64,000 nt of DNA, taken from NCBI GenBank assembly GCA_964384125.1, contig CAYLKA010000005.1, forward strand, positions 1,554 through 65,553, read 5' to 3'. This stretch comes from an uncultured Gammaproteobacteria bacterium (GTDB taxonomy: Bacteria > Pseudomonadota > Gammaproteobacteria > Steroidobacterales > Rariloculaceae). The translations under genes and the position numbers were made by a program. Shown here one piece after another: positions 44,058 through 59,270 of this stretch. The notes beneath the pieces were generated by a model. The model was given only the letters and a program-made list of their open reading frames with translations. It ran no database searches and was not told the DNA's origin. How positions within the stretch are numbered: the stretch's first letter is position 1; every line of letters starts with the position of its first letter.

Positions 44058-45104
44058 ATGAGTGAAGAGAAAAATCTGGTTGTTGCAGCGGGCGTGTTGC
44101 TCGCATTAGTGCTGGCTGCACCCGTTCACTCGGATTCTGTGTCTGACTTTTACGAGGGTCGGCAGGTACGTCTCCTCATCGGTTACAGCGCCGGGGGTGG
44201 ATACGATACCTACGCGCGGCTACTTGCACGGCATCTGGGCAAGCACATACCCGGCAACCCGACCGTCGTTCCCCAGAACATGCCTGGTGCGGGAAGCCTT
44301 ACAGTAGCTAACTTCCTTTACAACGTCGCTCCGAAGGACGGTAGTGTGATCGGAACGTTCGCACGGGGTATGGCGATGGAACCGTTGTTGTCCGGCGATG
44401 GAACACGTTTCAACGCGAGTGAGTTTTCGTGGATTGGTAGTCTCAATAATGAGGTTAGTGTATGCGCCTCGTGGCACACCTCTGACGTTCGAACAATGCA
44501 GGATCTGGAAACCAGGGAACTCATTGTCGGGGGCACCGGCTCCGGGGCAGATACCGACACTTTCCCTATCGTGATGAGTAATTTGCTCACCGCAAACATC
44601 AAACTGATATCAGGTTACCCGGGTGGAAATGACGTTTTGTTGGCGATGGAACGCGGTGAGGTAGATGGCCGGTGTGGGTGGTCATGGTCCACCATTAAAT
44701 CTCGCAACGCCGATTGGTTAGCTGAAGGTAGGATCAATATCCTCGTGCAACTTGCGTTGGAGAAACATCCGGATCTTGCGCACGTGCCGCTTATCACAGA
44801 CTTTGCGGACAACGAGGACGAACTGATGGCGATGGAGCTGATCTTCGCGCGGCAGGTGATGGGGCGGCCTTACCTCGCTCCCCCGGGAATTCCGGCCGAT
44901 CGACACGAAGTTCTGAGGCGTGCTTTCGACGCAACGACTCGCGACCCGGAGTTTCTCGCCGATGCTGAACGCATTCAGCTCGAACTCAACCCCGTCAACG
45001 GGGAGGAGATCGATGCTCTTATCGTTCGCATCTACGGGGCATCGGAAAACGCGATAGGACTCGCGTCTGATGCGATCGTCAATACCGCTAATAACAATCG
45101 ATGA
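44058..45104 (+). CDS. tctC: TctC/Bug-family substrate-binding protein
   Basis: AAGGGAGA RBS. Signal peptide MSEEKNLVVAAGVLLALVLAAPVHS. GYSAGGGYDTYARL and QNMPGAGS motifs. Confidence 0.85.
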   Translation: MSEEKNLVVAAGVLLALVLAAPVHSDSVSDFYEGRQVRLLIGYSAGGGYDTYARLLARHLGKHIPGNPTVVPQNMPGAGSLTVANFLYNVAPKDGSVIGTFARGMAMEPLLSGDGTRFNASEFSWIGSLNNEVSVCASWHTSDVRTMQDLETRELIVGGTGSGADTDTFPIVMSNLLTANIKLISGYPGGNDVLLAMERGEVDGRCGWSWSTIKSRNADWLAEGRINILVQLALEKHPDLAHVPLITDFADNEDELMAMELIFARQVMGRPYLAPPGIPADRHEVLRRAFDATTRDPEFLADAERIQLELNPVNGEEIDALIVRIYGASENAIGLASDAIVNTANNNR

Positions 45105-45172
45105 ATTCAGGGCAGAGGAGGGCACCGTACCGCTCGCCGCCCGGGAACACTTGAGCGCCGGAGGACACTGAG

Positions 45173-47200
45173 TTGGACTTCAGCGCGCTCGAGTTCGCAA
45201 TATCCGCCCTTAACATCATGCTTGATCCTGCTCGCCTCATGGTATTGGCGGCTGGAGTGCTTGTCGGGTTGACGATCGGAGTTATCCCGGGCCTTGGCGG
45301 AATCGTTGGCATTGCTCTACTGATTCCCTTCACCTTCGAGATGGATCCGTACTCGGCCTTTGCCTTCCTGATAGGGATCGGTGCAGTCACCACGACCTCC
45401 GACACTGTGCCCGCGGTTCTTTTCGGTGTCCCAGGAACGACCGGGTCTGCGGCAACGATCCTTGATGGTCATCCACTCGCGAAACGCGGTCAGGCGGGAC
45501 GGGCTTTCGGAGCGGCTTATACCGCTTCTCTCCTCGGCGGGCTCGCCGGCGCTGTGCTGCTTGCGGTCAGCATTCCGGTGCTGCGCCCGGTGATTCTCTA
45601 CCTTGGTTCCCCAGAGCTATTGGCCATTTGCGTATTCGGTATGTCGATGGTGGCAGTGCTTAGCGGGAAGGCGCCCCTGCGAGGGATGGTCGCTGGGGGA
45701 ATAGGGCTGATGGTTGCCATGGTGGGTTCGGACCCACAGACGGGCACCATGCGGTGGACCTTCGACACGCTGTATCTGTGGGATGGTCTGCCGCTCGTGC
45801 CGATCACCTTGGGCTTATTCGCGTTGCCTGAACTCGCGGATCTTGCCATTCGGCGCCAAAGCATCGGCCGGCAGGCGAGAGTCGACACACGTTCGGGACA
45901 ACTGCAGGGCATCCGGGACTCGTTGAAACGTTGGTGGTTGGTTCTCCGATGCAGTTGGATCGGTGCGGCCCTGGGAGCCGTCCCAGGGATGGGTGCTGCG
46001 GTCATCGATTGGCTTGCCTACGGCCATGCCCTGAAGACTGAAAAAGACACCGAGCGATTTGGTGAGGGGGATATCCGGGGCGTGATCGCCTCGGAGAGCT
46101 CCAACAATGCGAAGGAGGGCGGTGCCCTCGTGCCTACGCTGGCCTTTGGTGTTCCCGGCAGTGCGTCCATGGCGATCCTCCTGGGGGCGTTTACGATGCA
46201 TGGCCTGGTGCCAGGTCCGAGGATGCTAACGGAGAATCTTGAGGTCACCTACTCGATCGTCTGGAGCCTCGCTTTGGCTAACGTGTTGGGCGCGGGCTTG
46301 TGTCTGACGTTCAGTAATCAGCTGGCGCGCGTTGCCACGATTCGAATGGGACTGCTGCTGCCTGTGGTTTTGGCCATCATCTTTCTCGGTGCGTTTCAAG
46401 GGTCTCGCCAATGGGGGGATCTCCACGTTCTCCTCGGGTTCGGGCTGTTCGGCTGGGTAATGAAGCAGCAGGGTTGGCCGCGTCCACCCCTGATTCTCGG
46501 AGTGGTGCTTGGTGATATCGTTGAGCGTTACCTGTTCATCTCTGTGAACCGGTACGACTGGGCATGGCTGAGCCGACCACTTGTCATTTTGTTTTTCACG
46601 CTCGCACTGCTTGGGCTGTTGGGACCGTTAGTGCGCAATCTCCGTGCGGCGGTTGGAAAAGGTTCCGGGCTTCGGCTACAGCCCCGGTTTTCCACGTCGG
46701 CGTTGTTCACGGTGAGCATTCTCGCGGTTCTGGTGGGATTCGTCCTGGTCACTTCACAATGGAACTTTGAGGCCCGAATTGTTCCGTTGGCCGTCGGATA
46801 TACAGCCATGATCTGTGCGATTCTGAGTGTGATTAACGAAGTTTTTCTCCGATCGGCTACCGGTGCGGCCCTCGAAACGGAATCCAGCGCTGAGGCGAGC
46901 GGTAAAGGAGAAGCACTCACGTTGAATGGGCAGACCGTTCTCATAAGGGCGGCCGAGTTTTTTGCCTGGTGTGGTGGGTATTTATTATTGGCCCGCGTCA
47001 CGGGTATGCTCCCCTCGATTTTTGTCTTTGTGGTGCTGGGTGTCCGGTTTTGGGGCCGCGAGACGATTGCGTGGGCGTTGGGGTTGGGAATAGGAGTTAC
47101 CGCGTTCAGTTGGCTCCTATTCGATCGTGTTTTGTCGATACCCTGGCCTCAGAATTTGCTTGGGGGGATTTTTCCGGCGCTGCAACCTTTCTTGCGATGA
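45173..47200 (+). CDS. tctA: TctA large permease fused to a C-terminal TctB-like 4-TM module
   Basis: 675 aa. The first ~500 aa are colinear with the standalone TctA (VIPGLGG, GVPGTTGSAATILDG, GAVPGMGAAVIDW). The last ~170 aa mirror the standalone TctB pattern (ARIVPLAVG ... FWGRETIAWALGLG). Confidence 0.78.
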   Translation: MDFSALEFAISALNIMLDPARLMVLAAGVLVGLTIGVIPGLGGIVGIALLIPFTFEMDPYSAFAFLIGIGAVTTTSDTVPAVLFGVPGTTGSAATILDGHPLAKRGQAGRAFGAAYTASLLGGLAGAVLLAVSIPVLRPVILYLGSPELLAICVFGMSMVAVLSGKAPLRGMVAGGIGLMVAMVGSDPQTGTMRWTFDTLYLWDGLPLVPITLGLFALPELADLAIRRQSIGRQARVDTRSGQLQGIRDSLKRWWLVLRCSWIGAALGAVPGMGAAVIDWLAYGHALKTEKDTERFGEGDIRGVIASESSNNAKEGGALVPTLAFGVPGSASMAILLGAFTMHGLVPGPRMLTENLEVTYSIVWSLALANVLGAGLCLTFSNQLARVATIRMGLLLPVVLAIIFLGAFQGSRQWGDLHVLLGFGLFGWVMKQQGWPRPPLILGVVLGDIVERYLFISVNRYDWAWLSRPLVILFFTLALLGLLGPLVRNLRAAVGKGSGLRLQPRFSTSALFTVSILAVLVGFVLVTSQWNFEARIVPLAVGYTAMICAILSVINEVFLRSATGAALETESSAEASGKGEALTLNGQTVLIRAAEFFAWCGGYLLLARVTGMLPSIFVFVVLGVRFWGRETIAWALGLGIGVTAFSWLLFDRVLSIPWPQNLLGGIFPALQPFLR

Positions 47201-47253
47201 TGTCGCCGAGAGGCATGGATAAACCTTCGTTACTTACTTCAAAGAGAAAAGCT

Positions 47254-48342
47254 ATGACAGACGCTCACGAACCTAAGTTCCTGTGTGATCCGTATCTCGA
47301 TTGGGCCGAGGCAGAGGGCATACCGATGGTCGAGGACTTCGGTGTTGATCTGAATGAGGTCGAAACACGTCCGTGGGCCCGCATGGGTCTTGACGGGGCA
47401 CTCGTGCATCTTAAGGGCCGAGGTGATTTTCTCTGCGTGTTCGTGCTCGATCTTCCTCCTGGAGGAAAGTCTTCACCCCAACGTCATGTCTTCGAAGAAG
47501 TCGTCTACGTGCTCGAAGGCCAGGGCAGTACGACTATCAAGACCCATGATGGCCAGACCCATAGCTTCGAGTGGAGCCAGGGGGGGCTTTTTGCTTTGCC
47601 GCTGAATGCTACGTATCAGCACTTCAACGGCAGTGGAAAATCCAGAGCACGCCTATCGTCAACAAACAATCTGCCAATGGTCTTGAACCTTTTTCACAAC
47701 GACGCTTTTGTGTTCGACAATTCGTTCGATTTTGTGGAGCGAGAGGGCAAAGAGACATTCTTTTCCGGTGAGGGGGATTTCATCCCTAAGACGCCTGGTC
47801 GGCACATGTGGGAGACGAATTTTATTCCTGATTTGAGGCAGTTCGAACTCGTCAAGTGGGAGAAACGGGGAGCCGGTGGCTCGAATATGATGTTTGTTCT
47901 GGCGGACGGCACGATGCATGCCCATTCCTCGGAAATGCCGGTTGGTACCTACAAGAAGGCGCACCGCCATGGTGCGGACTTTCATGTGTCCTGCATTACC
48001 GGTACTGGCTATTCGTTATTGTGGTACGAAGATGATGCGGAATTTGTTCGGGTGGACTGGGATCATGGCGTCGTCTTTGCGCCACCCGACGGTATGTATC
48101 ACCAGCATTTCAACACAAGCCCGACGCCAGCCCGATACCTCGCTATCGCGCTGGGCGGGTTACGTTACCCAATGGTTGCCGAGAAACGCGCGGTGTTCAT
48201 GGGGATGGACGTCAACGTACGCGATGGTGGGGCACAGATCGAGTACGAGGACCAGGACGCCCGCATTCATGAGATTTATCTGGAGGCGTTGCGGGAAAAT
48301 GGTGTCGATTCAGGTATGGGGCGTTTTCTGCAGGAAAACTGA
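47254..48342 (+). CDS. Bicupin protein (tandem paralog 1)
   Basis: 362 aa from ATG 47254. The ORF-track start 46969 overlaps tctA-B. Cores QRHVFEEVVYVLEGQG ... YQHFNGSG and GTYKKAHRHGADFH ... MYHQHFNTS. Confidence 0.78.
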   Translation: MTDAHEPKFLCDPYLDWAEAEGIPMVEDFGVDLNEVETRPWARMGLDGALVHLKGRGDFLCVFVLDLPPGGKSSPQRHVFEEVVYVLEGQGSTTIKTHDGQTHSFEWSQGGLFALPLNATYQHFNGSGKSRARLSSTNNLPMVLNLFHNDAFVFDNSFDFVEREGKETFFSGEGDFIPKTPGRHMWETNFIPDLRQFELVKWEKRGAGGSNMMFVLADGTMHAHSSEMPVGTYKKAHRHGADFHVSCITGTGYSLLWYEDDAEFVRVDWDHGVVFAPPDGMYHQHFNTSPTPARYLAIALGGLRYPMVAEKRAVFMGMDVNVRDGGAQIEYEDQDARIHEIYLEALRENGVDSGMGRFLQEN

Positions 48343-48370
48343 GCGCTGATGACTGGGTGGTGTAGCTGAA

Positions 48371-49459
48371 ATGGCAAGTTCAGAACCGAAATTTCTGTTT
48401 GACCCTTATCTCGATTGGGTGGAGAAAGAAGGTCCTGCGGTTACGGAGGGTCTTGGAATCGATCTGCTTGAAATCAAGACTACTCCTTGGCCTCGTTTGG
48501 GAGTCGATGGGGCCTTCGCGCATTTAAGGGGACGCGGTGACTTTGTCTCCATCTTTGTGATCGATATTCCTCCGGGTGGAAATACAGCGCCCCAGCGTCA
48601 CCTTTTCGAGGAAGTCGTCTATGTTCTCGAGGGCCGCGGCAGTACGACCATCAAGACGTCGGATGGGGAGACACACAGCTTCGAGTGGGGGCCCAAGAGT
48701 CTTTTCGCGTTACCCTTGAACGCCGAGTATCGACACTTCAACGGGAGTGGTCGTTCTCGGGTAAGAATTGCCTCAACGAATAATCTCCCGGTGGTACTGA
48801 ACGTTTTTCATAATGAGGCCTTCATTTTTAAAAACGATGCTTCCTTTCCAGAGCGCGCGGGCAAGGCTGGGTATTTTAGTGGTGAAGGCGAGTTCATTCC
48901 CAAACGACCCGGCCGCCACATGTGGGAGACGAACTTCGTGCCGGATGTTAGTGCTTTCGAGCTCCGTTCCTGGGATAAGCGAGGTGCTGGCAGCTCTAAT
49001 ATGAAGTTCATACTCGCCGACGGCACGATGCATGCACACTCTTCAGAGATGCCGGTTGGAACCTACAAGAAGGCGCATCGTCACGGCCCAGACTTTCACG
49101 TGTTTAATGTCACCGGCGGCGGATACTCGCTGTTGTGGTACGAGGATGATGAGGATTTCGAGAGGGTAAATTGGCGCCATGGCGTCGTTTTCGCCCCGCC
49201 AGACGGAATGTACCATCAGCATTACAATACGGGTAACCAGCCTGCTCGTTACCTAGCGATCGCCCTTGGGAGCCTTCGGTATCCATTTACGTCGGCCAAA
49301 CGTCGGTTGTTTGAAGGGGTGGATGTGAACGTTCGTGATGGCGGCGCTCAGATAGAGTACGAAGATCAGGATCCACGCATCCATCAGATTTATCTTCGAG
49401 AGCTCGCAGCGAACGGTGTTGGTTCGCGGATGAACGAGTATATCGATGAGAATCTCTGA
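48371..49459 (+). CDS. Bicupin protein (tandem paralog 2)
   Basis: 362 aa, the same length as paralog 1. By eye roughly two thirds of positions are identical. Cores QRHLFEEVVYVLEGRG ... YRHFNGSG and GTYKKAHRHGPDFH ... MYHQHYNTG. Confidence 0.78.
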   Translation: MASSEPKFLFDPYLDWVEKEGPAVTEGLGIDLLEIKTTPWPRLGVDGAFAHLRGRGDFVSIFVIDIPPGGNTAPQRHLFEEVVYVLEGRGSTTIKTSDGETHSFEWGPKSLFALPLNAEYRHFNGSGRSRVRIASTNNLPVVLNVFHNEAFIFKNDASFPERAGKAGYFSGEGEFIPKRPGRHMWETNFVPDVSAFELRSWDKRGAGSSNMKFILADGTMHAHSSEMPVGTYKKAHRHGPDFHVFNVTGGGYSLLWYEDDEDFERVNWRHGVVFAPPDGMYHQHYNTGNQPARYLAIALGSLRYPFTSAKRRLFEGVDVNVRDGGAQIEYEDQDPRIHQIYLRELAANGVGSRMNEYIDENL

Positions 49460-51026
49460 GTCATTTCCTTCGCGCAGATCAGAGTGGTTCCAGTCCGAGT
49501 TGTTTTTGCACGAGCTCGGATTCGATCATTTACATCCAACCGAAGAGGAGAAAAAGCAACTCAGCGAGATTATCTGGTCCACTGACAACATCGTGCTAAG
49601 GACGGTGGGTGTGGATATTGGGTCTTCCACTTCCCATCTCATGTTCTCCCGTGTCCATCTTCAACGACTCTCTGAGGCTTTATCGAGTCGCTTCGTGGTA
49701 GTGAATCGGGAAATGCTGTGGCGCTCACCGATATTACTGACACCTTATTCATCCGGTAGGACTATCGACGCTGAGAGATTGGGAGCGTTTATATCTGACG
49801 CATATAAAGAGGCCGGACTGACGCCCGAGGACATCGACAGTGGTGCGGTGATTCTCACAGGTGAGGCGCTCAAGCGACGTAACTCACGGGTCATCGCAGA
49901 CCTCTTCGCAGACCAGTCGGGTAAATTCGTCTGCGCCTTGGCGGGCCATCATCTCGAGGCCGTCATGGCAGCGCATGGCTCTGGGGCGGTGGAATACTCT
50001 CGTCGTCACCATAAGACCGTCCTCAACGTGGACATCGGGGGCGGTACTACCAAATTGGCACTCGCACACGGCGGGAGCCTGCTCGGTCACGCGGCGGTAG
50101 CCGTTGGCGGCCGCCTCGTTGCTTTCGATGAAAGCGGGGCGTTGACGAGGATCGAGGAACCAGCGTTTCGAATCGCCGAGGAGGTAGGTGTAAAGCTCGT
50201 ATACGGGGAGAAACTGACAGCCGATGATCGTGACAGAATGGTTAGCGCGATGGCAGACGTCGTGATCACTGCGAGCTGCCTCCGCCCTTGGGAGGGTTTA
50301 GGTGCAGCGTTGGCGCTAACGGAATGTCTGCCCGAAACGTCCCCTGTGGATGCTGTAACGTTTTCAGGCGGTGTGGCCGAGTACATCTTTGGTCGAGAGG
50401 AGGAGGGTCACTCCGATCTGGGTCGCGATCTCGCAGCTAGGATCGTAGAGGCACTCAGAGGGAAGCGAATCCCGTATCCGGTGTATGACCCCGGTAACGG
50501 CATCTGCGCTACTGTAATTGGCGCGTCGCAGTTCTCGGTGCAGGTGAGCGGCAACACGATTCTCATATCAGGTGAGGGGTCATTGCCGCTGCGCAACGTT
50601 CCCGTCGTGCATCTGACGACCCAACTTGATGGGGAGATTGACGCCGACGTCGTTGCTCAGGATATCGCTGCCGCGCTCGAGTCTTTCGACATCGTTGAGG
50701 GGGAGGTGCCGGCCGCGCTCGCTTTCCGCTGGCAGGGAGACCCGCTGCATTCGCGGTTACACGAACTGGCGTTCGGTATAACAAAGGGTTTTTCTCGGAC
50801 GATCGCAGCGAAAGCGCCTCTTATCCTTTTGATGGATGGCGACATCGGGCGGACCTTGGGAGAGATACTACGACGAGAACTGAACGTCTCCGGGGACATT
50901 ATATCTGTTGATGGTGTGCAGCTTAGGACTTTCGACTACGTAGACATAGGCGAGCTGATAGAGCCTACGCACGTGGTACCGCTCATCATTAAATCCCTGC
51001 TCTTTTCCACGGGCGATTCGGATTAA
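49446..51026 (+). CDS. EutA-like ASKHA-fold ATPase
   Basis: 526 aa. VGVDIGSSTSHLMFSRVHLQR, VILTGEALKRRNS, ALAGHHLEAVMAAHGSGA, LNVDIGGGTTK. Its ATG overlaps the bicupin stop by 14 nt. Confidence 0.75.
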   Translation: MRISESFPSRRSEWFQSELFLHELGFDHLHPTEEEKKQLSEIIWSTDNIVLRTVGVDIGSSTSHLMFSRVHLQRLSEALSSRFVVVNREMLWRSPILLTPYSSGRTIDAERLGAFISDAYKEAGLTPEDIDSGAVILTGEALKRRNSRVIADLFADQSGKFVCALAGHHLEAVMAAHGSGAVEYSRRHHKTVLNVDIGGGTTKLALAHGGSLLGHAAVAVGGRLVAFDESGALTRIEEPAFRIAEEVGVKLVYGEKLTADDRDRMVSAMADVVITASCLRPWEGLGAALALTECLPETSPVDAVTFSGGVAEYIFGREEEGHSDLGRDLAARIVEALRGKRIPYPVYDPGNGICATVIGASQFSVQVSGNTILISGEGSLPLRNVPVVHLTTQLDGEIDADVVAQDIAAALESFDIVEGEVPAALAFRWQGDPLHSRLHELAFGITKGFSRTIAAKAPLILLMDGDIGRTLGEILRRELNVSGDIISVDGVQLRTFDYVDIGELIEPTHVVPLIIKSLLFSTGDSD

Positions 51027-51066
51027 CGCAGTACGCGCTAATACCCTAAGCCGCGATGCGAAGTTT

Positions 51067-52266
51067 TTGGGCTTGGTGTCATCCGGGCACTTCGTGAGTC
51101 ACTTCCTGACATTGACCCTGCCGCCTCTTTTTCCCTTTCTCCGAGCCGATTTCGACCTGGGTTACACAGAGCTGGGTTTGATCATGACGCTTTACGCTGC
51201 TGCCACCGGAATATTCCAGGTTCCTATGGGAATGCTGGTGGATAGGAAAGGCGCTTTCCCATTGTTGTTGACGGGTCTAACGGTGCTGTGCCTCTCCGTA
51301 GCCGGAATTGGGCTGACAAATTCACCTTGGACACTAGGGGCTTTGGCCGTACTGGCAGGCTCGGCTAACAGCGTTTTCCATCCCGCCAATTACGCGATCC
51401 TTGGTGCGACTGTAAACCCTAGTCGACTCGGACGGGCTTTCGGGGTCCACACTTTCGCTGGTCATTTTGGCAATGCACTGGCGCCCATCACGATCATCTT
51501 CCTGGCGGTAACTTGGGGTTGGCGTGCGGCTTTGGTGACGGTCGGTGCCATGGGGCTGATGGTAACCGGCGCGATCTTGTTAAGTGGTAATCCTGGTGAT
51601 GGCGATACGCAGGTGGCGCGACGTTCCGAACGGGCTAGGGATGGAGGGAAGAACCAAGAGTCCAATTCTTTAAAGTTTCTTTTCTCTTCTCCACTTTTGA
51701 AACTTTTCCTTTTCTTCGTGCTGACGGCGGCCGCATCCAACGGGATGCAAACTTTCTCTGTGACCGCCTTGGTCATGCTTTTCGACACGCCGCTAGTGAC
51801 TGCAAGTGCTGCGCTGACAGTTTTTTTGTTTGCGTCGTCAGTCGGTATTCTCGCGGGGGGAATACTGGCCGACTTTACAAGCCGGCACGATCTCGTGGCG
51901 GCGTTGGCGTTCGCGCTTACCGCCGCCATTATTGCGCTGGTGGGTTCCGTCGCTCTACCTGCGTTTCTGCTGATGTTGCTAATGGGGACGGCGGGCCTAC
52001 TTCAAGGAGTTATTCGCCCCGCGCGTGACATGCTTGTGCATGCGGCAGCCCCAGAGGGTGCCACGGGTAAGGTGTTTGGTTTCGTCACGACGGGTATCAA
52101 TGTCGGCGGTGCCCTCATGCCCCTCCTTCTGGGATGGCTAGTGGATCGGGGTGCTGCGGAGGGGGTGTTTTGGCTCATAGCCCTTGTCATGGTGTTGGCT
52201 CTTGTGACGGTGCTTACCACCCGCCAACCGACCGGGCCGATCAGGGTTCCTCAGGAATACGATTGA
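51067..52266 (+). CDS. MFS transporter
   Basis: 399 aa with about 12 TM helices. Typical MFS loop MLVDRKGAFP after TM2. TTG start, N-terminus uncertain. Confidence 0.75.
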   Translation: MGLVSSGHFVSHFLTLTLPPLFPFLRADFDLGYTELGLIMTLYAAATGIFQVPMGMLVDRKGAFPLLLTGLTVLCLSVAGIGLTNSPWTLGALAVLAGSANSVFHPANYAILGATVNPSRLGRAFGVHTFAGHFGNALAPITIIFLAVTWGWRAALVTVGAMGLMVTGAILLSGNPGDGDTQVARRSERARDGGKNQESNSLKFLFSSPLLKLFLFFVLTAAASNGMQTFSVTALVMLFDTPLVTASAALTVFLFASSVGILAGGILADFTSRHDLVAALAFALTAAIIALVGSVALPAFLLMLLMGTAGLLQGVIRPARDMLVHAAAPEGATGKVFGFVTTGINVGGALMPLLLGWLVDRGAAEGVFWLIALVMVLALVTVLTTRQPTGPIRVPQEYD

Positions 52267-52377: not shown

Positions 52378-53925
52378 ATGAAAAAAGACATTACGAACCT
52401 CCGTTCTACGTTGGAGTGGCTGCAGGAGCAGGGAGACGTTATTGAAACGGACAAGGAAGTGGATCCAGATCTCGAGCTCACGGGTCTACAGAAACATCTA
52501 GATGGCGGCCCGGTGATGCTCTTTAATAATGTCAAAGGCAAGCCACATGCACGGGCCATCACAAATCTTTTCTCTGACATCGAGGTGATTGACAGGATTT
52601 TCGACTATGAAGATCCCGTGCAGCGCACAAAGAAAATTGCCGAGTGCATTGAGCAGCCGCTTCCACCACGCGAAATTCCGCAGGAAGACGCACCCTGTCA
52701 GGAGACAGTTCTTACGGATGATCTTGACGTCAACAAATGGATAACCGCGATTCGTCACACCAAGCTAGAGACAGAGCTCACTGTTGGCTCGGGAATATCG
52801 TGCGTTGTTGGAGATTATTTCAACGGCGGTAGCCACATTGGTTACAACCGAATGAATTTTCGTTGGGGTAACGTTGGTACTTTCCAGATCTCGCCTGGGT
52901 CGCATATGTGGCAGGTGATGACCAAACATTACAAGGACGAGCAACCAATCCCACTGACCATGTGTTTCGGTGTCCCGCCTGCATGCACACTGGTGGCGGG
53001 CGGTGGCTTTGATTATGCGTTACTGCCTAAGGGTTGTGACGAGATTGGGATGGCAGGTGCCGCTCAGGGCTCGCCGGTCAACATCGTCAAAGCACGCACG
53101 GTTGAGAATGCTTGGGCTATTGCCGAGTCCGAGTATGTCCTGGAAGGTTATTTGTATCCCCGGGATAAGCGTTATGAAACCAGGGAGGCTGAGGAAGCCG
53201 ATGTGCAGGGCAAGTATTTCTTCCATCCGGAATGGGCCGGTTATATGGGTAAGGCTTACAAGGCACCGACCTTCCACGTTACCGCCATCACGATGCGCGA
53301 TCCGAAAACCCGTCCCATCATTTATCCACTCGGCGTTCACATGTCGGACTGCATCAACATCGATACGACTGTGCGCGAATCGGCGATTTTCGGGCTCTGC
53401 GAGCGGGTGCAGCCTGGGATCGTGCAGGATGTTCATATTCCGTACAGCATGACCGACTGGGGTGGTTGCATAATTCAGGTAAAGAAACGCAACAAAATTG
53501 AAGAGGGTTGGCAAAGAAACTTCCTGTCAGCCATCCTTTCCTGTTCTCAGGGTATGCGCTTGGCAATCGCTGTGAGCGAGGATGTGGATATCTATTCCAT
53601 GGACGACATCATGTGGTGTCTTACGACACGAGTGAATCCCCGTGCCGATATACTCAATCCTCTCCCTGGCGGTCGTGGGCAGACGTTTATGCCTTCGGAA
53701 CGCATGACCGCGGGGGATAAACAATGGACAGCATCGAACACCGAGTTTGAGGGTGGTATGGGAATCGATGCCACTGTGCCTTATGGATACGAGCAAGACT
53801 TCCACCGACCGGTTTACCCCATCGATCATGTCAAGCCGGAGGATTTCTTTACCGACGCCCAGATCGAAAATGCCAAGTCCCGGATGGCGGGTTGGGTAAT
53901 TTCGTTGGCCCGTACTGGAAGGTAA
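52378..53925 (+). CDS. UbiD-family (prFMN-dependent) decarboxylase
   Basis: 515 aa. N-terminal LRSTLEWLQEQGDVIETDKEVDPDLELTG...GGPVMLFNNVKG and overall length and composition are typical of UbiD-like decarboxylases. Confidence 0.75.
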   Translation: MKKDITNLRSTLEWLQEQGDVIETDKEVDPDLELTGLQKHLDGGPVMLFNNVKGKPHARAITNLFSDIEVIDRIFDYEDPVQRTKKIAECIEQPLPPREIPQEDAPCQETVLTDDLDVNKWITAIRHTKLETELTVGSGISCVVGDYFNGGSHIGYNRMNFRWGNVGTFQISPGSHMWQVMTKHYKDEQPIPLTMCFGVPPACTLVAGGGFDYALLPKGCDEIGMAGAAQGSPVNIVKARTVENAWAIAESEYVLEGYLYPRDKRYETREAEEADVQGKYFFHPEWAGYMGKAYKAPTFHVTAITMRDPKTRPIIYPLGVHMSDCINIDTTVRESAIFGLCERVQPGIVQDVHIPYSMTDWGGCIIQVKKRNKIEEGWQRNFLSAILSCSQGMRLAIAVSEDVDIYSMDDIMWCLTTRVNPRADILNPLPGGRGQTFMPSERMTAGDKQWTASNTEFEGGMGIDATVPYGYEQDFHRPVYPIDHVKPEDFFTDAQIENAKSRMAGWVISLARTGR

Positions 53926-53962
53926 CGGGCGGCAGGAGCAAGTCCCTAGGAGAGGCGTCCCG

Positions 53963-56362
53963 ATGTTGTCCGGAATTCGGGTGCTCGATTTCACCAACCA
54001 GCTGGGTTGGATAGCCGGCCGCATTCTTGCGGACCTCGGGGCTGACGTCGTCAAGGTCGAACCTCCGGATCTGGATATCACCGACTCAGCGTGGCAGGCC
54101 CACAATTTAAACAAACGTAGCTTGGCACTGGACATTACGACGAAGGCGGGCGAGGAGGCCGTGTTCGCGTTGGCGCCCTTTGCGGATATTCTTCTCCAGA
54201 CGGCTTTGCCCGGGAGCTCTGAGGCGGAGTTTTTTGACGAAAGCGGTTTTCGGGAGAAAAACCTGCATTTGATTCAAGTGTCCATCACTCCCTTCGGTCG
54301 GGGCGGGCCTCGCTCGTGCTGGTTGGCTAACGACTTGGAGCTGATGGCTGCCAGTGGCGCCATGTCTCTTGCGGGGGAGGCCGAAGGCATGCCGGTCCGC
54401 ATCTCTTCACCTCAATCCGGCGGGTGGGCTGGAGTTGCCGCTGCAACGGGAGCGCTGACGGCACTCAAGGCACGGGAGCGGACAGGGCGGGGTCAACTGG
54501 TGGACGTTTCCGCCCAGGCTGCAATTATCGCTGCGTTGGCCAACGCACCTACTTTTTATGATTTAGAAGGCACTGTTCCGACCCGCGCGGGTGCTTTCGT
54601 GACCGGGCGATCGGTTGAGGGAGCCCGTTACCGCGTGTTTTGGCCGTGTCAGGACGGCTACATAAACTTCATTCTTTATGGGGGGATTGCGGGCCGACGC
54701 ACCAATCAGGCGCTTGTAGATTGGATCTGTGAGGATGGGGAAGAGCCAGGGGTTCTAACCAAGATAAACTGGGATCATTTCAGTCCGACAGAATTGACCC
54801 AAAACGAAGTTGACGCGATCGAGGAGCCGATCGGTCGCTTCATGCGTCGCCTTACGAAGCGTGAATTTCTAGATGGCGCGTGCGCAAGAGACATGCTTGG
54901 GTATCCTGTCTCCACGGTTGCTGACATCGCTGCCGATCCCCAGCTGGAAGCTCGGGCGTTCTGGAGCGACCAAACTGACCTAGATGGAAACACCCGTCGC
55001 TACTGTGGCAGCTTCGGTGTAGTAGACGGGCAACGTTTGCCAATCCGACAGCCGACTGGTCGGTCTGTGACATTGGCAGAGCTTATTGAGGCACCTAATG
55101 TTCCGCGTGGTGGTGCAGAGGGGTCCGAAAAAGTGCCTCCCGCTACTGATGAGGCTAGGGCCCTCGGCGGCGTTAAAGTTGCAGTGTTCGGTGGGTATGC
55201 AGCGGGTCCCTGGATCGGGAAGCTTCTCGCAAATTTCGGCGCTGTTGTGGTTCACGTGGAGTCTGCCGATCGACCTGACGGGTTTCGCATGGAGTACCCG
55301 CCATTCAAAGACGACGAGCCCGGGGTTAATAGGGGTGGCACATTTGCGTTCTTCAACGACTCCAAGCTCGCCGTAACCCTCGATATCAAAAAGCCGGGCG
55401 GGGTTCGGCTTGCGCGCAGGCTAGTCGATTGGTGCGATATCGTGATCGAGAACATGCGCCCGGGCGTGATGGCCAGGCTTGGGCTTGGTTACGAGACGCT
55501 TATCGAGACGAACCCGGACCTCATACAGCTTTCTACATGTAACATGGGCCAGACAGGCCCTCGGGCTCGAACCCCGGGTTTCGGATCGCAGCTCTCAGCG
55601 ATGGCCGGTTTCTGCGAGCTAGCGGGCGAACCCGCTGGGTCACCGATGCTTCTCTATGGCCCCTACATTGATTTCATAGCCGCTTTTTACGGTACATCGG
55701 CGGCACTTGCCGCGCTGGAACAACGACGGGCTAGCGGTAAGGGGGCGCAGATTGATCTGTCCCAATACGAATGCGGCCTTTCATTCCTAGCAGGGGAGCT
55801 GCTGGATTTTCATGCCGGAGGTGGCATCGCCAAGCGCAGGGGTAATGATGATCCGGCGGCTGCACCCCATGGGGCGTTCCTGGGTTCGGATGGCCGGTGG
55901 CTGGTCTTGAGCTGTTGGAGCGACGAGGAATTCAGGCGGCTCGCCCACGCCGTTGGCGAGGGATCGTGGGCAGGGGAAAAACGTTTCGCGACCCTCTCGG
56001 CCCGGCAGGAGAACGCTTCGTTTCTAACCGAGGGTATCAACCGGTGGTGCAGCACCCGGACAGCACAGGAGACCGTCAGCGCCCTTCAGGAGTCCCGGGT
56101 TCACGCCTACGTTGTTAACACGGTGGCGGATCTGTTTTCCGACCCGCAACTCCTGCAGCGTGGGACGTGGCGGATTCGGAGGCACCCGGTTATCGGGGAG
56201 CAGGCGTATTATTTTCCTGGTTTCGACCTCTCCGATAATCCAGGCGATGTGACTACTGCCGGTCCCCTTCTCGGAGCGGACAACGAGCGTGTTTATCGAG
56301 ATTTCTTGGGTTTGACCGAAGGGGAGATCGGACAATATCGTGAGAGTGGAGTGATTGGTTAA
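53963..56362 (+). CDS. Tandem-fused class III (CaiB/BaiF/Frc-type) CoA-transferase
   Basis: 799 aa with two CaiB-like units, each opening with the family N-terminal pattern (LSGIRVLDFTNQLGWIAGRILADLGADVVKVEPP and GVKVAVFGGYAAGPWIGKLLANFGAVVVHVESADRPDG). Confidence 0.78.
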   Translation: MLSGIRVLDFTNQLGWIAGRILADLGADVVKVEPPDLDITDSAWQAHNLNKRSLALDITTKAGEEAVFALAPFADILLQTALPGSSEAEFFDESGFREKNLHLIQVSITPFGRGGPRSCWLANDLELMAASGAMSLAGEAEGMPVRISSPQSGGWAGVAAATGALTALKARERTGRGQLVDVSAQAAIIAALANAPTFYDLEGTVPTRAGAFVTGRSVEGARYRVFWPCQDGYINFILYGGIAGRRTNQALVDWICEDGEEPGVLTKINWDHFSPTELTQNEVDAIEEPIGRFMRRLTKREFLDGACARDMLGYPVSTVADIAADPQLEARAFWSDQTDLDGNTRRYCGSFGVVDGQRLPIRQPTGRSVTLAELIEAPNVPRGGAEGSEKVPPATDEARALGGVKVAVFGGYAAGPWIGKLLANFGAVVVHVESADRPDGFRMEYPPFKDDEPGVNRGGTFAFFNDSKLAVTLDIKKPGGVRLARRLVDWCDIVIENMRPGVMARLGLGYETLIETNPDLIQLSTCNMGQTGPRARTPGFGSQLSAMAGFCELAGEPAGSPMLLYGPYIDFIAAFYGTSAALAALEQRRASGKGAQIDLSQYECGLSFLAGELLDFHAGGGIAKRRGNDDPAAAPHGAFLGSDGRWLVLSCWSDEEFRRLAHAVGEGSWAGEKRFATLSARQENASFLTEGINRWCSTRTAQETVSALQESRVHAYVVNTVADLFSDPQLLQRGTWRIRRHPVIGEQAYYFPGFDLSDNPGDVTTAGPLLGADNERVYRDFLGLTEGEIGQYRESGVIG

Positions 56363-56377
56363 GGCAGGTCGCGCGAA

Positions 56378-57415
56378 GTGGAATTTATGATGAGAAGAGT
56401 TCTCGGTTGCCGATCACCTCAAGGTTCAGGGGCGGCTAGAGTGTTGGTGATGGCCTTATTCGTTCTTGCGGTACCCGGAAGCGGGTATGCACAGGAAAGG
56501 TACAACTTGGCACTCATGGGGGCTAGCCCTGGAGGGTTGTGGTCCTTACTTGGAGCAGGGATTAACTCGGCGGTCGTCAGTGAGCACCCAGGTTCAGTAG
56601 TGACCTATCAACAGTCCGGGGGGCGGGTTGCTAACGTTAGGTTGGTGAGCGAGGGTCGAGCCGATCTGGGAATAGTGCACGACGTTGAGCTCAAAGCTGC
56701 CGTTGAGGGGAGCGCACCTTTTCAACAGCCGGTAATGAATCTGAGGGTCATCGCCTATCTTTACGCCTGGGCACCAATGCAGCTCGTCATTACCCGAGCG
56801 TTTGCAGATCGGTATGGTATCGAGACCCTGCGGGACCTCATCACAACCGAGGCGCCGGTTCGCATGGGGGTTAACACTCGAGGCAATATGGTCCAAGAGG
56901 TCAATCGTTCGATATTTGGTGCCTATGGCGTTACCTATGAGGATGTTGAAAGTTGGGGAGGGCAGGTAGTTTTTGCAGCATCGAACGAGATGGCCACCCT
57001 GATGGCGAACCGTCGTATTGATATGTCAAGCAATGGTGTGTTTGCGCCGAACAATTCAATTCTTCAATCGAGCAATTCGGTTGAGGTCATCATGCTGCCG
57101 CTTCACGAGGAGGCAATAGACATAGTCTCCGATATCACGGGAGCTCGGGCTTATACGGTTCCCGCTGGTGCTTACGAATGGCTTGATCATGACGTCCCTA
57201 CGATCGCTCTAGGAGCCGAGCTGATCGTGAACGAGACTCTGCCAGATCAGCAAGCCTACGATCTGGCTCGAGCATTGATGGAAAACATCGACAGGTTGCG
57301 CGGCGTGCATCGAGCTATGAGTGATCTGACCCCAGAGTTCATGGTTTCTCAGAGCATCGTTCCATACCATCCCGGTGCGCTGCGTTATTACCGTGAAGTT
57401 GGGCTCGTCGATTAG
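56378..57415 (+). CDS. TAXI-family TRAP transporter solute receptor
   Basis: 345 aa with a signal peptide. GASPGGLWSLLGAGI..., pattern ending PYHPGALRYYREVG typical of TAXI (immunogenic-protein type) receptors. Confidence 0.75.
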   Translation: MEFMMRRVLGCRSPQGSGAARVLVMALFVLAVPGSGYAQERYNLALMGASPGGLWSLLGAGINSAVVSEHPGSVVTYQQSGGRVANVRLVSEGRADLGIVHDVELKAAVEGSAPFQQPVMNLRVIAYLYAWAPMQLVITRAFADRYGIETLRDLITTEAPVRMGVNTRGNMVQEVNRSIFGAYGVTYEDVESWGGQVVFAASNEMATLMANRRIDMSSNGVFAPNNSILQSSNSVEVIMLPLHEEAIDIVSDITGARAYTVPAGAYEWLDHDVPTIALGAELIVNETLPDQQAYDLARALMENIDRLRGVHRAMSDLTPEFMVSQSIVPYHPGALRYYREVGLVD

Positions 57416-57431
57416 CCTCAAAGGCGAGGGT

Positions 57432-59270
57432 ATGAACGCGGTTCGCTTCCTCTTTTCGATCGGTGCGAGACGTCGGCTTGAGGGGGGCTTTCGCCAGATC
57501 GTGTGGTTCTATTCCGCGTGTCTCGCGTTATGGGCTATTTGGGCGGCAACCCTGGCGCTCATCGATCCATTGGCGCACGGAGCTATCTTTGTCTGTTTCA
57601 TGCTCGGACTGATGTTTCTTGTGGTGGCCCCGGGCGACAAGGGTGGAGGGGCCACGCCATGGGTCGGCGATTACATCCTGTCTGGCGCGAGCATCCTATG
57701 TGGTCTCTATTTCATTGTCTCTGCCGAGCGTGTTTCCGGCCGAATCTCATTGTTAGATCCGCTGACCGATCTGGATTTGCTTTTTGGAACTGCGCTTTGG
57801 TTGCTCGCATTAGAAGCCACTCGCCGTGCCGTCGGTCTCGCGCTTATGCTCGTTGTCATTACGTTTGTTTTCTACAACCTTTTTGGCCATCTGATTGACG
57901 GTGTGATGTCGCACGGTTTTATTAGCTACGAGCACTTTCTTGATCAGTCTATATTCACAACGAATGGGATCTTCGGTGCCCCAATCCGTGTGGCCGCTAC
58001 GTACGCCTTCTTGTTCGTGTGTTTCGGCGTTTTTCTACAACGAGCCGGAGGGAGCGCCTTTTTCTTTAATCTAGCCTCGGCCATCACCGGTCGTAGCCCG
58101 GGGGGGGCGGCAAAGGTGGCAATTGCTTCTTCCGCGCTTTACGGGACCATGTCCGGAAGCCCCACGTCGGATGTCGTGACCACGGGGTCCATTACCATAC
58201 CGATGATGCGGCGATTGGGTTACTCGCCCGTACTCGCGGGCGCTGTAGAGGTAGCTGCATCTACGGGCGGTAGTATCCTGCCTCCCGTCATGGGCTCTGC
58301 CGTATTTATCTTGGTGGAATTTACCGGGATTAGCTACCAGACTGTCGTGGTTGCGGCATTGATCCCGGCATTTCTGTTTTATCTCGCCCTATACGCTCAA
58401 GTCCATCTCAGCGCGTTACGTTTGGGGCTGGACGGGCTGGAGGCCTCGGAGTCTCACCAGGCGCGGAACACACTTCGAAACGGGGGCGTGTTCGTGATAC
58501 CCCTCCTGGTGATCGTGGGAGCGCTTGCAATGGGCTTCACCCCCACTTTCGCAGCGGTATTCGGGGCTCTGGCGGCTATCGTCTCGTCGTTACCGAGAAG
58601 GGAAACGCGTATAAACATACGAGGGATTTACGAAGGTTTGGCTGAGACGAGCCTGCGGATGGTGCCGGTTATGGCGGCCTGCGCAGCTGCCGGTTTAGTG
58701 GTCGGGGGCATCAGTATCACGGGCTTGGCAGGAAAATTTTCCTATATCGTGCTTGCCCTGGCGGGTGAGAGCCAGATCCTGACCTTCGCCGTAGCCGGGG
58801 TACTTTGTATTCTCCTGGGTATGGGGATGCCTACTCCAAGTGCGTACATTCTCGCCGCGGTTCTTATTGCTGATGTGTTAATTGTGCCTGGGGTGGAAGT
58901 TTTAACCGCACACATGTTCCTGCTTTTCTTCTCAGTGTTATCTGCGATCACGCCGCCTGTTGCTGTGGCCGCATATGCTGCATCATCCATCGCGGAAGCT
59001 AACCCACTGGCTATCGCTGTGGCTGCTTTGCGCCTCTCCCTCGTTCTTTTCCTCGTGCCCTTTGCGTTTGTCTACGTTCCCGGTCTGCTCGCCCAAGGTT
59101 CGCCAGGGGAAATTGCGATAGCGTTGGTTTTTGCGATACCGGGTGTTCTTGCGCTAGCGGTAGCCAGCGAAGGGTATTGGAGAGGGGTGTTGCAGAGTTG
59201 GCAGCGTATTGGCGTGGGATGCGCGGGAATGGGTTTGCTGTTTGCACCAGCCTTTTTCAGAGGGATTTGA
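57432..59270 (+). CDS. TRAP transporter fused (4TM/12TM) permease, TAXI-associated type
   Basis: About 612 aa, polytopic, AAGGCGAGGG RBS. Follows the TAXI receptor. SALYGTMSGSPTSDVVTTGSITIPMM motif typical of DctM-like modules. Confidence 0.78.
   Translation: MNAVRFLFSIGARRRLEGGFRQIVWFYSACLALWAIWAATLALIDPLAHGAIFVCFMLGLMFLVVAPGDKGGGATPWVGDYILSGASILCGLYFIVSAERVSGRISLLDPLTDLDLLFGTALWLLALEATRRAVGLALMLVVITFVFYNLFGHLIDGVMSHGFISYEHFLDQSIFTTNGIFGAPIRVAATYAFLFVCFGVFLQRAGGSAFFFNLASAITGRSPGGAAKVAIASSALYGTMSGSPTSDVVTTGSITIPMMRRLGYSPVLAGAVEVAASTGGSILPPVMGSAVFILVEFTGISYQTVVVAALIPAFLFYLALYAQVHLSALRLGLDGLEASESHQARNTLRNGGVFVIPLLVIVGALAMGFTPTFAAVFGALAAIVSSLPRRETRINIRGIYEGLAETSLRMVPVMAACAAAGLVVGGISITGLAGKFSYIVLALAGESQILTFAVAGVLCILLGMGMPTPSAYILAAVLIADVLIVPGVEVLTAHMFLLFFSVLSAITPPVAVAAYAASSIAEANPLAIAVAALRLSLVLFLVPFAFVYVPGLLAQGSPGEIAIALVFAIPGVLALAVASEGYWRGVLQSWQRIGVGCAGMGLLFAPAFFRGI

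What the first reader, a model, noticed from the sequence alone, without database searches (positions are those of the whole stretch)
52378..59270. UbiD decarboxylase + class III CoA-transferase + TAXI-TRAP transporter: resembles the anaerobic phthaloyl-CoA decarboxylase route, here beside oxygenase genes
Four co-directional genes with gaps of 37 nt, 15 nt and none encode a UbiD-family decarboxylase, a CoA-transferase, a TAXI receptor and a fused TRAP permease.

In denitrifying Thauera, Azoarcus and Aromatoleum strains, o-phthalate is activated by a two-subunit class III succinyl-CoA-dependent CoA-transferase. A UbiD-family phthaloyl-CoA decarboxylase then converts it to benzoyl-CoA, and those clusters include TRAP-type uptake genes. 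The same three-part logic appears here.

Alternative substrates for UbiD/CoA chemistry, such as isophthalate, terephthalate or furan-2,5-dicarboxylate, are equally possible. No UbiX (prFMN synthase) is in the window.
Basis: partly seen in the sequence, partly recalled or inferred. Interest (0 to 1): 0.66.

Follow-up and report, generated by a model that had tools for sequence, protein, structure and literature searches.

The report
Phthalate-to-benzoyl-CoA gene cluster, marine variant
These four genes are a clear counterpart of the known bacterial system that takes up the plasticiser breakdown product o-phthalate and converts it to benzoyl-CoA without oxygen, found here in an uncultured, oxygen-respiring marine alphaproteobacterium with two enzyme subunits fused and no cofactor-synthesis gene nearby.

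Summary
Four co-directional genes at 52378-59270 encode a UbiD-family decarboxylase, a 799-aa double family-III CoA-transferase, a TAXI binding protein and a fused TRAP permease.

The decarboxylase is an ortholog of the solved phthaloyl-CoA decarboxylase of Thauera chlorobenzoica: 951 bits and 77% identity, against 161 bits for the next family. The four genes are collinear with the Aromatoleum evansii KB740 phthalate cluster. The CoA-transferase is the two subunits of that cluster joined by a linker of about 25 residues. Only the C-terminal half keeps the catalytic Asp, as in Aromatoleum.

Isophthalate, terephthalate or furandicarboxylate are therefore not "equally possible".

Differences from the published clusters:
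- The transferase is fused.
- No UbiX or IclR gene lies anywhere in the 64 kb.
- There are no transposases.
- The cluster sits on a chromosome between the nuo and cox operons.
- A conserved, uncharacterised module (TTT transporter, two bicupins, EutA-like ATPase, MFS) lies directly upstream.

No benzoyl-CoA pathway genes are in the window.

Verdict: a modest new variant of a known system. Public records name close relatives of the decarboxylase UbiD.

The parts
52378..53925 (+). Phthaloyl-CoA decarboxylase ortholog (PCD / PhtDa; UbiD family, prFMN-dependent), 515 aa
   Evidence: Pfam UbiD_N/UbiD/UbiD_C. PDB 8oz5 'Phthaloyl-CoA decarboxylase' 951 bits, full length. 77.2% identity to the T. chlorobenzoica enzyme, and all 180 family-invariant columns kept. 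78% identity to A. evansii and 77% to the A. aromaticum EbN1 plasmid 2 copy.
53963..55072 (+). N-terminal half of the fused family-III CoA-transferase. It corresponds to the SptA/PhtSa-like (BbsE-like) subunit and lacks the catalytic Asp (Gly153 at that position).
   Evidence: 58% identity to A. evansii L057:11558-12751. The alignment with Frc, BbsF and the A. evansii subunits shows no Asp in the active-site column in either this half or the A. evansii 'a' subunit.
55073..55153 (+). Pro/Gly/Glu-rich linker of about 25 residues joining the two CoA-transferase halves (LAELIEAPNVPRGGAEGSEKVPPATDE)
   Evidence: Translation and coordinates. There is no stop codon between the halves. A 100% identical 799-aa protein heads a cluster of 24 sequences whose full-length members are all 799 aa.
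55154..56362 (+). C-terminal half of the fused CoA-transferase. It corresponds to the SptB/PhtSb-like (BbsF-like) catalytic subunit. The catalytic Asp570 is the codon at 55670-55672.
   Evidence: 60% identity to A. evansii L057:12688-13968. The Asp aligns with the Asp of formyl-CoA transferase and BbsF.
56378..57415 (+). TAXI-family periplasmic solute-binding protein (PhtTa-like), with signal peptide
   Evidence: NCBIfam TRAP_TAXI 164 bits. 46% identity to the A. evansii TAXI gene in the same position. Signal peptide.
57375..59270 (+). Fused TRAP permease (PhtTb-like). The likely true start is the ATG at 57432.
   Evidence: NCBIfam TRAP_fused 547 bits. 52% identity to the A. evansii gene in the same position. 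Start-codon inspection.
43983..52266 (+). Possibly associated, function unknown. Co-directional module: TctC-like 43983-45104, fused TctA/TctB 45173-47200, bicupin 47254-48342, bicupin 48371-49459, EutA-like ATPase 49446-51026, MFS transporter 51067-52266.
   Evidence: Pfam. The same order lies next to PCD in L001 and L003. It also occurs without PCD, and the PCD block occurs without it. It is therefore not an obligatory part of the system.

Best explanation
This is a four-gene uptake-and-activation unit for o-phthalate. It belongs to the oxygen-independent 'pht' type known from Thauera, Aromatoleum and Azoarcus.

Proposed steps:
1. The TAXI binding protein (56378-57415) and the fused TRAP permease (57432-59270) import phthalate.
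2. The 799-aa CoA-transferase (53963-56362) moves CoA from succinyl-CoA to phthalate. It is a natural fusion of the non-catalytic 'a' subunit and the Asp-bearing catalytic 'b' subunit of succinyl-CoA:o-phthalate CoA-transferase.
3. The prFMN-dependent decarboxylase (52378-53925) immediately removes the free ortho-carboxyl group of the labile phthaloyl-CoA, giving benzoyl-CoA and CO2.

What is shown here: domain content, orthology to the solved and characterised decarboxylase, collinearity with a characterised cluster, and the catalytic Asp pattern.

What is inferred:
- The substrate and the CoA donor, from orthology.
- That prFMN is supplied by a UbiX encoded outside the window.
- That benzoyl-CoA is consumed by a pathway encoded elsewhere. 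In an organism with complex I and aa3 oxidase genes flanking the cluster, this is most plausibly the aerobic box pathway.
For: Decarboxylase:
- 951 bits, E 1e-285, full length to PDB 'Phthaloyl-CoA decarboxylase' 8oz5/8pmk. The next family, AroY, scores 161 bits.
- 77.2% identity, with 180/180 family-invariant columns kept.
- This lies inside the 74-85% identity range that PMC8269228 reported for the UbiD homologs it treated as phthaloyl-CoA decarboxylase genes.

Cluster:
- Collinear with A. evansii KB740: PCD 78%, CoA-transferase a 58%, b 60%, TAXI 46%, TRAP 52%.
- The catalytic Asp is present only in the C-half, exactly as in the A. evansii b subunit.
- The same four-gene block, with the fused transferase, recurs in a different neighbourhood in a 4.8-Mb contig: L088, at 88/64/70/61/68% identity. 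It also recurs in L001. The four genes therefore travel as a unit.

Wider support:
- The PCD-CoA-transferase pairing is seen in 63-65 of the 80 related loci.
- In eight alphaproteobacterial loci the pht genes share a conserved gene arrangement. In one of them, L029, the 478-aa gene matches BoxB 3PER at 763 bits. This shows that the aerobic route for benzoyl-CoA is used with this module in relatives.
- Literature: the pathway, the o-phthalate specificity of the transferases, the instability of phthaloyl-CoA and the TAXI-TRAP uptake system are described in PMC13040137 and PMC11451385.
Against: - No UbiX gene lies in the 64-kb window. PhtDa alone is inactive without the UbiX-like PhtDb (bioRxiv 10.1101/2022.07.29.502009). 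The 2026 review states that UbiX genes occur in all known clusters.
- No box, bcr/bzd or other benzoyl-CoA-consuming genes are in the window.
- No experiment exists for this organism or for a fused transferase.
- TAXI identity to the characterised system is only 46%, so transporter specificity is the weakest link.
- The characterised decarboxylase is reported to be oxygen-sensitive (my recollection of Mergelsberg et al. 2017, not read here). The genomic setting here is that of an aerobe.
Confidence: 0.85

Rival explanations
1. Same enzymology, but the physiological substrate is a different ortho-dicarboxylated aromatic or heteroaromatic acid. Candidates include substituted phthalates, or natural products of PAH or dissolved-organic-matter oxidation. 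Xenobiotic o-phthalate would then be only a side substrate.
For: - Orthologs at 74-92% identity are found in at least 578 species-level genomes across several phyla. These include open-ocean and mesopelagic Rhodospirillaceae MAGs. That is a wide distribution for a pathway thought to have evolved for a compound made industrially for about 70-80 years (PMC8269228, PMC13040137).
- The cluster is chromosomal, syntenic between two species (window and L001) and free of transposases. This contrasts with the transposon-flanked plasmid copies in A. aromaticum EbN1.
- It is recurrently linked to uncharacterised bicupins.
Against: - 77% identity to the characterised enzyme, with every invariant residue kept.
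- The homologous transferases tested so far accept only o-phthalate among the three phthalate isomers (PMC13040137).
- Phthalate itself also arises naturally from PAH degradation (PMC6362003 abstract).
Confidence: 0.1
2. The decarboxylase acts on isophthaloyl-CoA, terephthaloyl-CoA or furan-2,5-dicarboxylate. These are the first reader's 'equally possible' alternatives.
For: All are UbiD-family reactions. No assay has been done on this protein.
Against: - HmfF-type structures (6h6x/6h6v) score only 105-108 bits, against 951 for phthaloyl-CoA decarboxylase.
- The known isophthalate route uses an ATP-dependent ligase, not a family-III transferase (PMC9516798).
- The homologous transferases show no activity with isophthalate or terephthalate (PMC13040137).
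Confidence: 0.03
3. The gene is the ubiquinone-biosynthesis UbiD (4-hydroxy-3-polyprenylbenzoate decarboxylase), as public records name several members of its 90%-identity cluster. Alternatively, the cluster is a decaying remnant that is no longer functional because its UbiX partner is lost.
For: - Source annotations in its 90%-identity cluster read '4-hydroxy-3-polyprenylbenzoate decarboxylase' and 'ubiquinone biosynthesis protein UbiD'.
- UbiX is absent from the window. It is present next to PCD in the related L003 and in 50 of 80 loci.
Against: - E. coli UbiD structures score 51 bits, and the NCBIfam UbiD equivalog scores 51 bits against a cutoff of 788.
- All four ORFs are intact.
- The decarboxylase is 92% identical between the window and L001, while flanking genes are 64-85% identical. 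This is consistent with strong constraint (inference; no dN/dS was computed).
- 30 of 80 loci lack an adjacent UbiX, including L088, so a distant prFMN source appears common.
Confidence: 0.02

Closest known systems
[quoted passage not shown] PA01): succinyl-CoA:o-phthalate CoA-transferase (SptAB/PhtSaSb), phthaloyl-CoA decarboxylase (PCD/PhtDa), UbiX-like PhtDb, TAXI-TRAP PhtTaTb
   Same: The gene order decarboxylase, transferase a, transferase b, TAXI, fused TRAP is the same as in A. evansii KB740. Identities are 77-78% for the decarboxylase, 58/60% for the transferase, and 46/52% for the transporter. The catalytic Asp is found only in the b part.
   Different: - The transferase subunits are fused into one 799-aa chain.
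- No UbiX and no IclR regulator lie next to the cluster or anywhere in the 64 kb.
- There are no transposases and no plasmid context. The EbN1 copy sits on a conjugative plasmid beside IS elements.
- The host is an uncultured marine Rhodospirillaceae-like alphaproteobacterium, and the cluster lies between the nuo and cox operons.
Aerobic hybrid phthalate pathway (phthaloyl-CoA route feeding the box benzoyl-CoA epoxidase pathway; Ebenau-Jehle et al. 2020, listed as ref. 15 in PMC9516798; content from my own knowledge, paper not held)
   Same: An oxygen-independent activation and decarboxylation module sits in a bacterium equipped for aerobic respiration. One locus of a conserved alphaproteobacterial group carries pht genes and a boxB ortholog together (L029), and seven more share its gene arrangement.
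   Different: The window itself has no box genes. Whether the organism has them is unknown.
Ligase-type phthalate clusters (ATP-dependent phthalate-CoA ligase + PCD) of sulfate reducers such as Desulfosarcina cetonica
   Same: The same decarboxylase step. Six marine Rhodospirillaceae loci (L012, L016, L032, L044, L064, L075) have PCD and TAXI without a CoA-transferase. In L012 the gene after PCD is an AMP-binding ligase, and its 8-locus cluster was not listed locus by locus.
   Different: The window uses a family-III CoA-transferase, not a ligase.
Benzylsuccinate CoA-transferase BbsEF (PDB 9fn0), the closest solved heteromeric family-III CoA-transferase
   Same: Two paralogous family-III subunits. 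The C-half matches BbsF (189 bits) and the N-half matches BbsE (154 bits).
   Different: Much more distant than the A. evansii phthalate transferase subunits (341 and 462 bits). BbsEF is made of separate chains.

Membership tests
Oxygen-independent o-phthalate (pht / SPT-PCD) cluster | UbiD-family decarboxylase belonging to the phthaloyl-CoA decarboxylase clade | tested here: met
   951 bits to PDB 8oz5/8pmk against 161 for the next family. 77.2% identity, with 180/180 invariant columns kept.
Oxygen-independent o-phthalate (pht / SPT-PCD) cluster | Two paralogous family-III CoA-transferase parts (a non-catalytic, b with catalytic Asp) encoded next to the decarboxylase | tested here: met
   58% and 60% identity to the A. 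evansii a and b subunits, in the same order. Asp570 is in the b part only. Here the two parts are fused into one chain.
Oxygen-independent o-phthalate (pht / SPT-PCD) cluster | UbiX-like flavin prenyltransferase (PhtDb) encoded in the cluster | tested here: not met
   No tblastn hit to the A. evansii UbiX at E<=1e-5 in the whole window. No PF02441 domain in the ORFs scanned. Also absent within 10 kb in L001 and L088. The function is still required, so it must be encoded elsewhere. This could not be checked.
Oxygen-independent o-phthalate (pht / SPT-PCD) cluster | TAXI-TRAP uptake system (PhtTaTb) adjacent | tested here: met
   NCBIfam TRAP_TAXI and TRAP_fused above cutoff. 46% and 52% identity to the A. 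evansii genes in the same positions. Ligand specificity was not tested.
Oxygen-independent o-phthalate (pht / SPT-PCD) cluster | Conversion of o-phthalate + succinyl-CoA to benzoyl-CoA + CO2 | not testable with these tools
   Needs enzyme assays.
Oxygen-independent o-phthalate (pht / SPT-PCD) cluster | A benzoyl-CoA-consuming pathway (box or bcr/bzd) in the same genome | tested here: inconclusive
   None found in the 64-kb window. The rest of the genome is not available. Related alphaproteobacterial loci share an arrangement that carries boxB beside pht in L029.
Ubiquinone-biosynthesis UbiD (as named in public records) | Score above the equivalog cutoff for 4-hydroxy-3-polyprenylbenzoate decarboxylase | tested here: not met
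   NF008175 scores 51 bits against a cutoff of 788. TIGR00148 scores 111 against a cutoff of 245.

The most novel reading that the evidence does not exclude
The upstream module (TTT transporter, two paralogous bicupins, EutA-like ATPase, MFS) may be a functional partner of phthaloyl-CoA and other UbiD-type decarboxylases in aerobic bacteria. It could be a new metal-dependent ring-processing or protective step that lets an oxygen-sensitive, prFMN-dependent route work in oxic seawater. The module is conserved beside the decarboxylase in the window, L001 and L003. Bicupin relatives lie within 10 kb of the decarboxylase in 23 of 80 loci from Alpha- and Betaproteobacteria and Acidobacteria. If this reading is right, the phthaloyl-CoA route would be an ancient, natural-substrate pathway of marine Rhodospirillaceae rather than a recent xenobiotic invention.
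Probability: 0.12. Interest if true: 0.75.

Novelty: new variant of a known kind. Interest (0 to 1): 0.4.

Why it matters
Phthalate is the common core of phthalate-ester plasticisers, which are made on a multi-million-ton scale. The oxygen-independent CoA route has been studied only in a few denitrifying and sulfate-reducing isolates.

This window, together with the 578 or more related genomes found here, shows that the same enzymes are chromosomally fixed in uncultured marine alphaproteobacteria, including mesopelagic ones, that carry aerobic respiratory chains. Public records there label the decarboxylase family 'UbiD', so surveys of plasticiser-degrading potential in the ocean probably undercount it.

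The naturally fused CoA-transferase could be a convenient single-gene part for engineering phthalate valorisation. It would also be a test case for how an interlocked family-III dimer folds as one chain.

None of this changes the known mechanism.

Tried and rejected
- Exact-sequence look-ups of the window's decarboxylase and transferase found no recorded contig. The source record could therefore not be named. Cluster membership shows only an NCBI contig of 66,966 bp and Rhodospirillaceae MAG relatives.
- Promoter and terminator scans of 43400-60000 gave fewer sites than shuffled sequence. They do not define operon boundaries.
- The bicupin was followed up in four ways, and all were uninformative about function. 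A PDB sequence search gave only a 22-bit hit. NCBIfam gave only 23-30 bits to 5-aminosalicylate 1,2-dioxygenase. A homolog search returned more than 6,000 proteins, and those listed that carry a name are called hypothetical or generic cupin-family proteins. The AlphaFold model (pLDDT 82) matched only generic bicupins (oxalate decarboxylase, MncA, vicilins) at TM about 0.5 and 11-14% identity.
- The EutA-like protein has no PDB relative.
- A greedy longest-ORF clustering of the 80 loci was noisy because of antisense ORFs in GC-rich DNA. It was used only as a guide and checked with tblastn.
- I considered that the fusion might be an assembly artefact. I rejected this for this lineage, because the 799-aa form recurs in many independent contigs.
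- I considered a mobile-element origin. No transposase or integrase was found among the ORFs scanned, and GC content is uniform at 0.53-0.60.
- The paper on the aerobic hybrid pathway (PMC7237782) is not held.
- I found no paper describing the 8oz5 structure in the library, so active-site residues could not be checked by name.


Full report
**1. The observation**

The first two gaps are 37 and 15 nt. The last junction is a 41-nt overlap with the GTG at 57375, but the ATG at 57432 with a Shine-Dalgarno-like AAAGGCGAGGG is the more likely start, which gives a 16-nt gap.

Domain assignments:
- UbiD_N/UbiD/UbiD_C for the first protein.
- Two CoA_transf_3 domains for the second.
- TRAP_TAXI for the third, above the curated cutoff.
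- TRAP_fused for the fourth, above the curated cutoff.

The TAXI protein has a signal peptide.

**2. What the decarboxylase is**

Against all PDB sequences, the 515-aa protein matches 'Phthaloyl-CoA decarboxylase (Pcd)' (8oz5, 8p02, 8pmk) end to end at E 1e-285 and 951 bits. The other UbiD-family structures score far lower:
- AroY: 161 bits.
- The HmfF-type entry 6h6x: 108 bits.
- Fdc1: about 62 bits.
- E. coli UbiD: 51 bits.

Identity to the Thauera chlorobenzoica sequence, transcribed from that alignment, is 77.2% over 508 residues. The window protein keeps all 180 columns that are invariant in 80 other orthologs. It is 78% identical to the Aromatoleum evansii KB740 gene and 77% to the copy on A. 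aromaticum EbN1 plasmid 2.

A published metagenomic study reported 74-85% identity for the UbiD homologs it treated as phthaloyl-CoA decarboxylase genes (PMC8269228). NCBIfam models for ubiquinone UbiD fall far below cutoff, at 51 against 788 bits. The names 'UbiD' and '4-hydroxy-3-polyprenylbenzoate decarboxylase' carried by members of its 90% cluster in public sources are therefore misleading.

**3. The cluster as a whole**

In A. evansii KB740 (locus L057) the gene order is IclR regulator, UbiX, decarboxylase, CoA-transferase a (397 aa), CoA-transferase b (426 aa), TAXI, fused TRAP. The window has the same order from the decarboxylase onwards. Identities are 58% (a against the N-half), 60% (b against the C-half), 46% (TAXI) and 52% (permease).

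The 799-aa protein is thus the two subunits joined by a Pro/Gly/Glu-rich linker at residues 371-397. In an alignment with formyl-CoA transferase and BbsF, the catalytic Asp is present in the C-half (Asp570, PYIDFI) and in the A. evansii b subunit. It is replaced in the N-half (Gly153) and in the A. evansii a subunit (Tyr). The division of labour of the known heteromer is therefore preserved inside one chain.

**4. How common these features are**

A scan of one genome per species found at least 578 relatives of the decarboxylase. The best 80 are 74-92% identical. Apart from four Aromatoleum or Polaromonas records not labelled as MAGs, they come from MAGs of Alpha-, Beta- and Gammaproteobacteria, Acidobacteria and others. 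Among those 80 loci:
- 63-65 have the CoA-transferase halves beside the decarboxylase.
- 50 have UbiX beside it.
- 13-14 have the TAXI-TRAP pair.
- Of the 60 loci with both transferase halves, 10 are fused.

The fused forms are scattered over a neighbour-joining tree of the C-halves, which suggests repeated fusion of adjacent genes. A direct homolog search also returned many full-length proteins of about 800 aa.

Six marine Rhodospirillaceae loci lack the transferase but keep TAXI beside the decarboxylase. In the one scanned, L012, the gene after the decarboxylase is an AMP-binding CoA ligase. This is the arrangement known from sulfate reducers.

The fused four-gene block recurs at 88/64/70/61/68% identity in an unrelated neighbourhood of a 4.8-Mb contig, again without UbiX within 10 kb. 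The four genes behave as one unit.

**5. Genomic setting**

- Window positions 1-13.5 kb encode complex I subunits.
- Positions 59.7-64 kb encode SURF1 and aa3-type cytochrome oxidase subunits II and I.
- In between lie several TTT transporters, small cupins, a third bicupin, a second EutA-like gene, a Rieske LigXa-like oxygenase, amidohydrolases and DUF6152 proteins.
- No transposase, UbiX, IclR, box or benzoyl-CoA reductase genes were found among the ORFs scanned.
- GC content is even.

The closest genome locus, L001, is a marine Rhodospirillaceae MAG with a 92% identical decarboxylase. It is syntenic from the TctC-like gene through COX1. The cluster is therefore a stable chromosomal feature of this lineage. 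This contrasts with the IS-flanked copies on a conjugative plasmid in A. aromaticum EbN1 and with the transposon-flanked copies reported from estuarine sediment (PMC8269228).

**6. Mechanism**

From orthology and the literature (PMC13040137, PMC11451385, PMC9516798 and the bioRxiv preprint 10.1101/2022.07.29.502009), the most likely function runs as follows:
1. TAXI-TRAP takes up o-phthalate.
2. CoA is transferred from succinyl-CoA to give the very unstable phthaloyl-CoA.
3. A prFMN-dependent decarboxylation follows immediately and gives benzoyl-CoA.

The preprint shows that the decarboxylase is inactive without its UbiX-like partner. The enzyme here must therefore draw prFMN from a UbiX encoded elsewhere. 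That is an inference I could not test.

The fate of benzoyl-CoA is also unknown for this organism. A group of eight alphaproteobacterial loci shares a conserved pht gene arrangement. In the one checked, L029, a benzoyl-CoA oxygenase BoxB ortholog (763 bits to 3PER) lies in the locus, together with BoxA- and BoxC-sized genes, an aldehyde dehydrogenase and formate-dehydrogenase-like genes. This is the gene content expected for the aerobic hybrid pathway described for denitrifiers (Ebenau-Jehle et al. 2020, cited in PMC9516798; content recalled, paper not held).

**7. The upstream module**

Directly upstream, co-directional and with short gaps, lie six genes:
- A TctC-like gene.
- A fused TctA/TctB.
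- Two 362-aa bicupins, 70% identical to each other.
- An EutA-like ASKHA ATPase.
- An MFS transporter.

The same six genes precede the decarboxylase in L001 and L003. L003 also has UbiX. Bicupin relatives lie within 10 kb of the decarboxylase in 23 of 80 loci.

The module also occurs without any phthaloyl-CoA decarboxylase. In one setting it sits next to three other UbiD-family genes that are only about 24% identical to PCD. Conversely, the four-gene pht block occurs without the module. The link is therefore suggestive, not obligatory.

Sequence, family and fold searches gave no function for the bicupins.

**8. Verdict**

It can be tightened from 'resembles' to 'ortholog of' the o-phthalate CoA-transferase/decarboxylase/TAXI-TRAP system.

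What is new relative to published clusters is modest:
- A fused transferase.
- No cluster-encoded UbiX or regulator.
- A stable chromosomal position in an aerobic-looking marine alphaproteobacterium.
- A recurrent uncharacterised neighbour module.

Interest is moderate.

Noticed in passing
window 43983-52266: Conserved six-gene module of unknown function: TctC-like, fused TctA/B, two paralogous bicupins, EutA-like ATPase and MFS. It recurs in the same order in other marine contigs with and without phthaloyl-CoA decarboxylase. In L083-L085 it sits among three other UbiD-family genes. The bicupin family has more than 6,000 uncharacterised homologs.
   Followed up: partly
window 32021-33994 and 39362-40984: A third bicupin (32879-33994) is divergently transcribed from a NicO-like Ni/Co transporter gene (32021-32728, minus strand). 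A second EutA-like gene lies at 39362-40984 (minus strand). A NicO-like gene also lies in the module next to PCD in L003 (6950-7678), which hints at a Ni/Co-dependent bicupin.
   Followed up: no
L029:15346-16782 and neighbours (also L005, L008, L010, L037, L050, L059, L068): Alphaproteobacterial MAG loci combine several gene sets in one locus: a bicupin, PCD, a split CoA-transferase, an enoyl-CoA hydratase, an aldehyde dehydrogenase, formate-dehydrogenase-like genes and, in L029, boxB (763 bits to 3PER) with BoxA/BoxC-sized genes. This amounts to a complete aerobic hybrid phthalate pathway in one place.
   Followed up: partly
L012, L016, L032, L044, L064, L075: In these marine Rhodospirillaceae MAGs PCD has no CoA-transferase beside it and is followed by TAXI(-TRAP). 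In L012, the only one scanned, the next gene is an AMP-binding CoA ligase. This ligase-type arrangement was previously tied to sulfate reducers.
   Followed up: no
L001:9224-9961: The closest syntenic relative has an extra class II aldolase/adducin-like gene between the MFS gene and PCD. It is 26% identical to the one ending the module in L083. The window has only a 111-nt gap at that position.
   Followed up: partly
window 13822-14829, 16616-17158, 24135-24590: Three DUF6152 genes, plus amidohydrolase and TTT-receptor genes, lie in the window. The same families flank the pht block in L088, which suggests a recurring set of catabolic-island genes in this lineage.
   Followed up: no
window 52378-53925 (public cluster members): Members of the 90%-identity cluster are named '4-hydroxy-3-polyprenylbenzoate decarboxylase' or 'ubiquinone biosynthesis protein UbiD' in NCBI and JGI records. 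This is probably a systematic misannotation of phthaloyl-CoA decarboxylases.
   Followed up: yes
window 6080-7170: The NuoH-like ORF (6080-6727, 215 aa) covers only profile positions 1-179 of 298, and about 440 nt follow before the next gene. This may be a frameshift or assembly error in nuoH.
   Followed up: no
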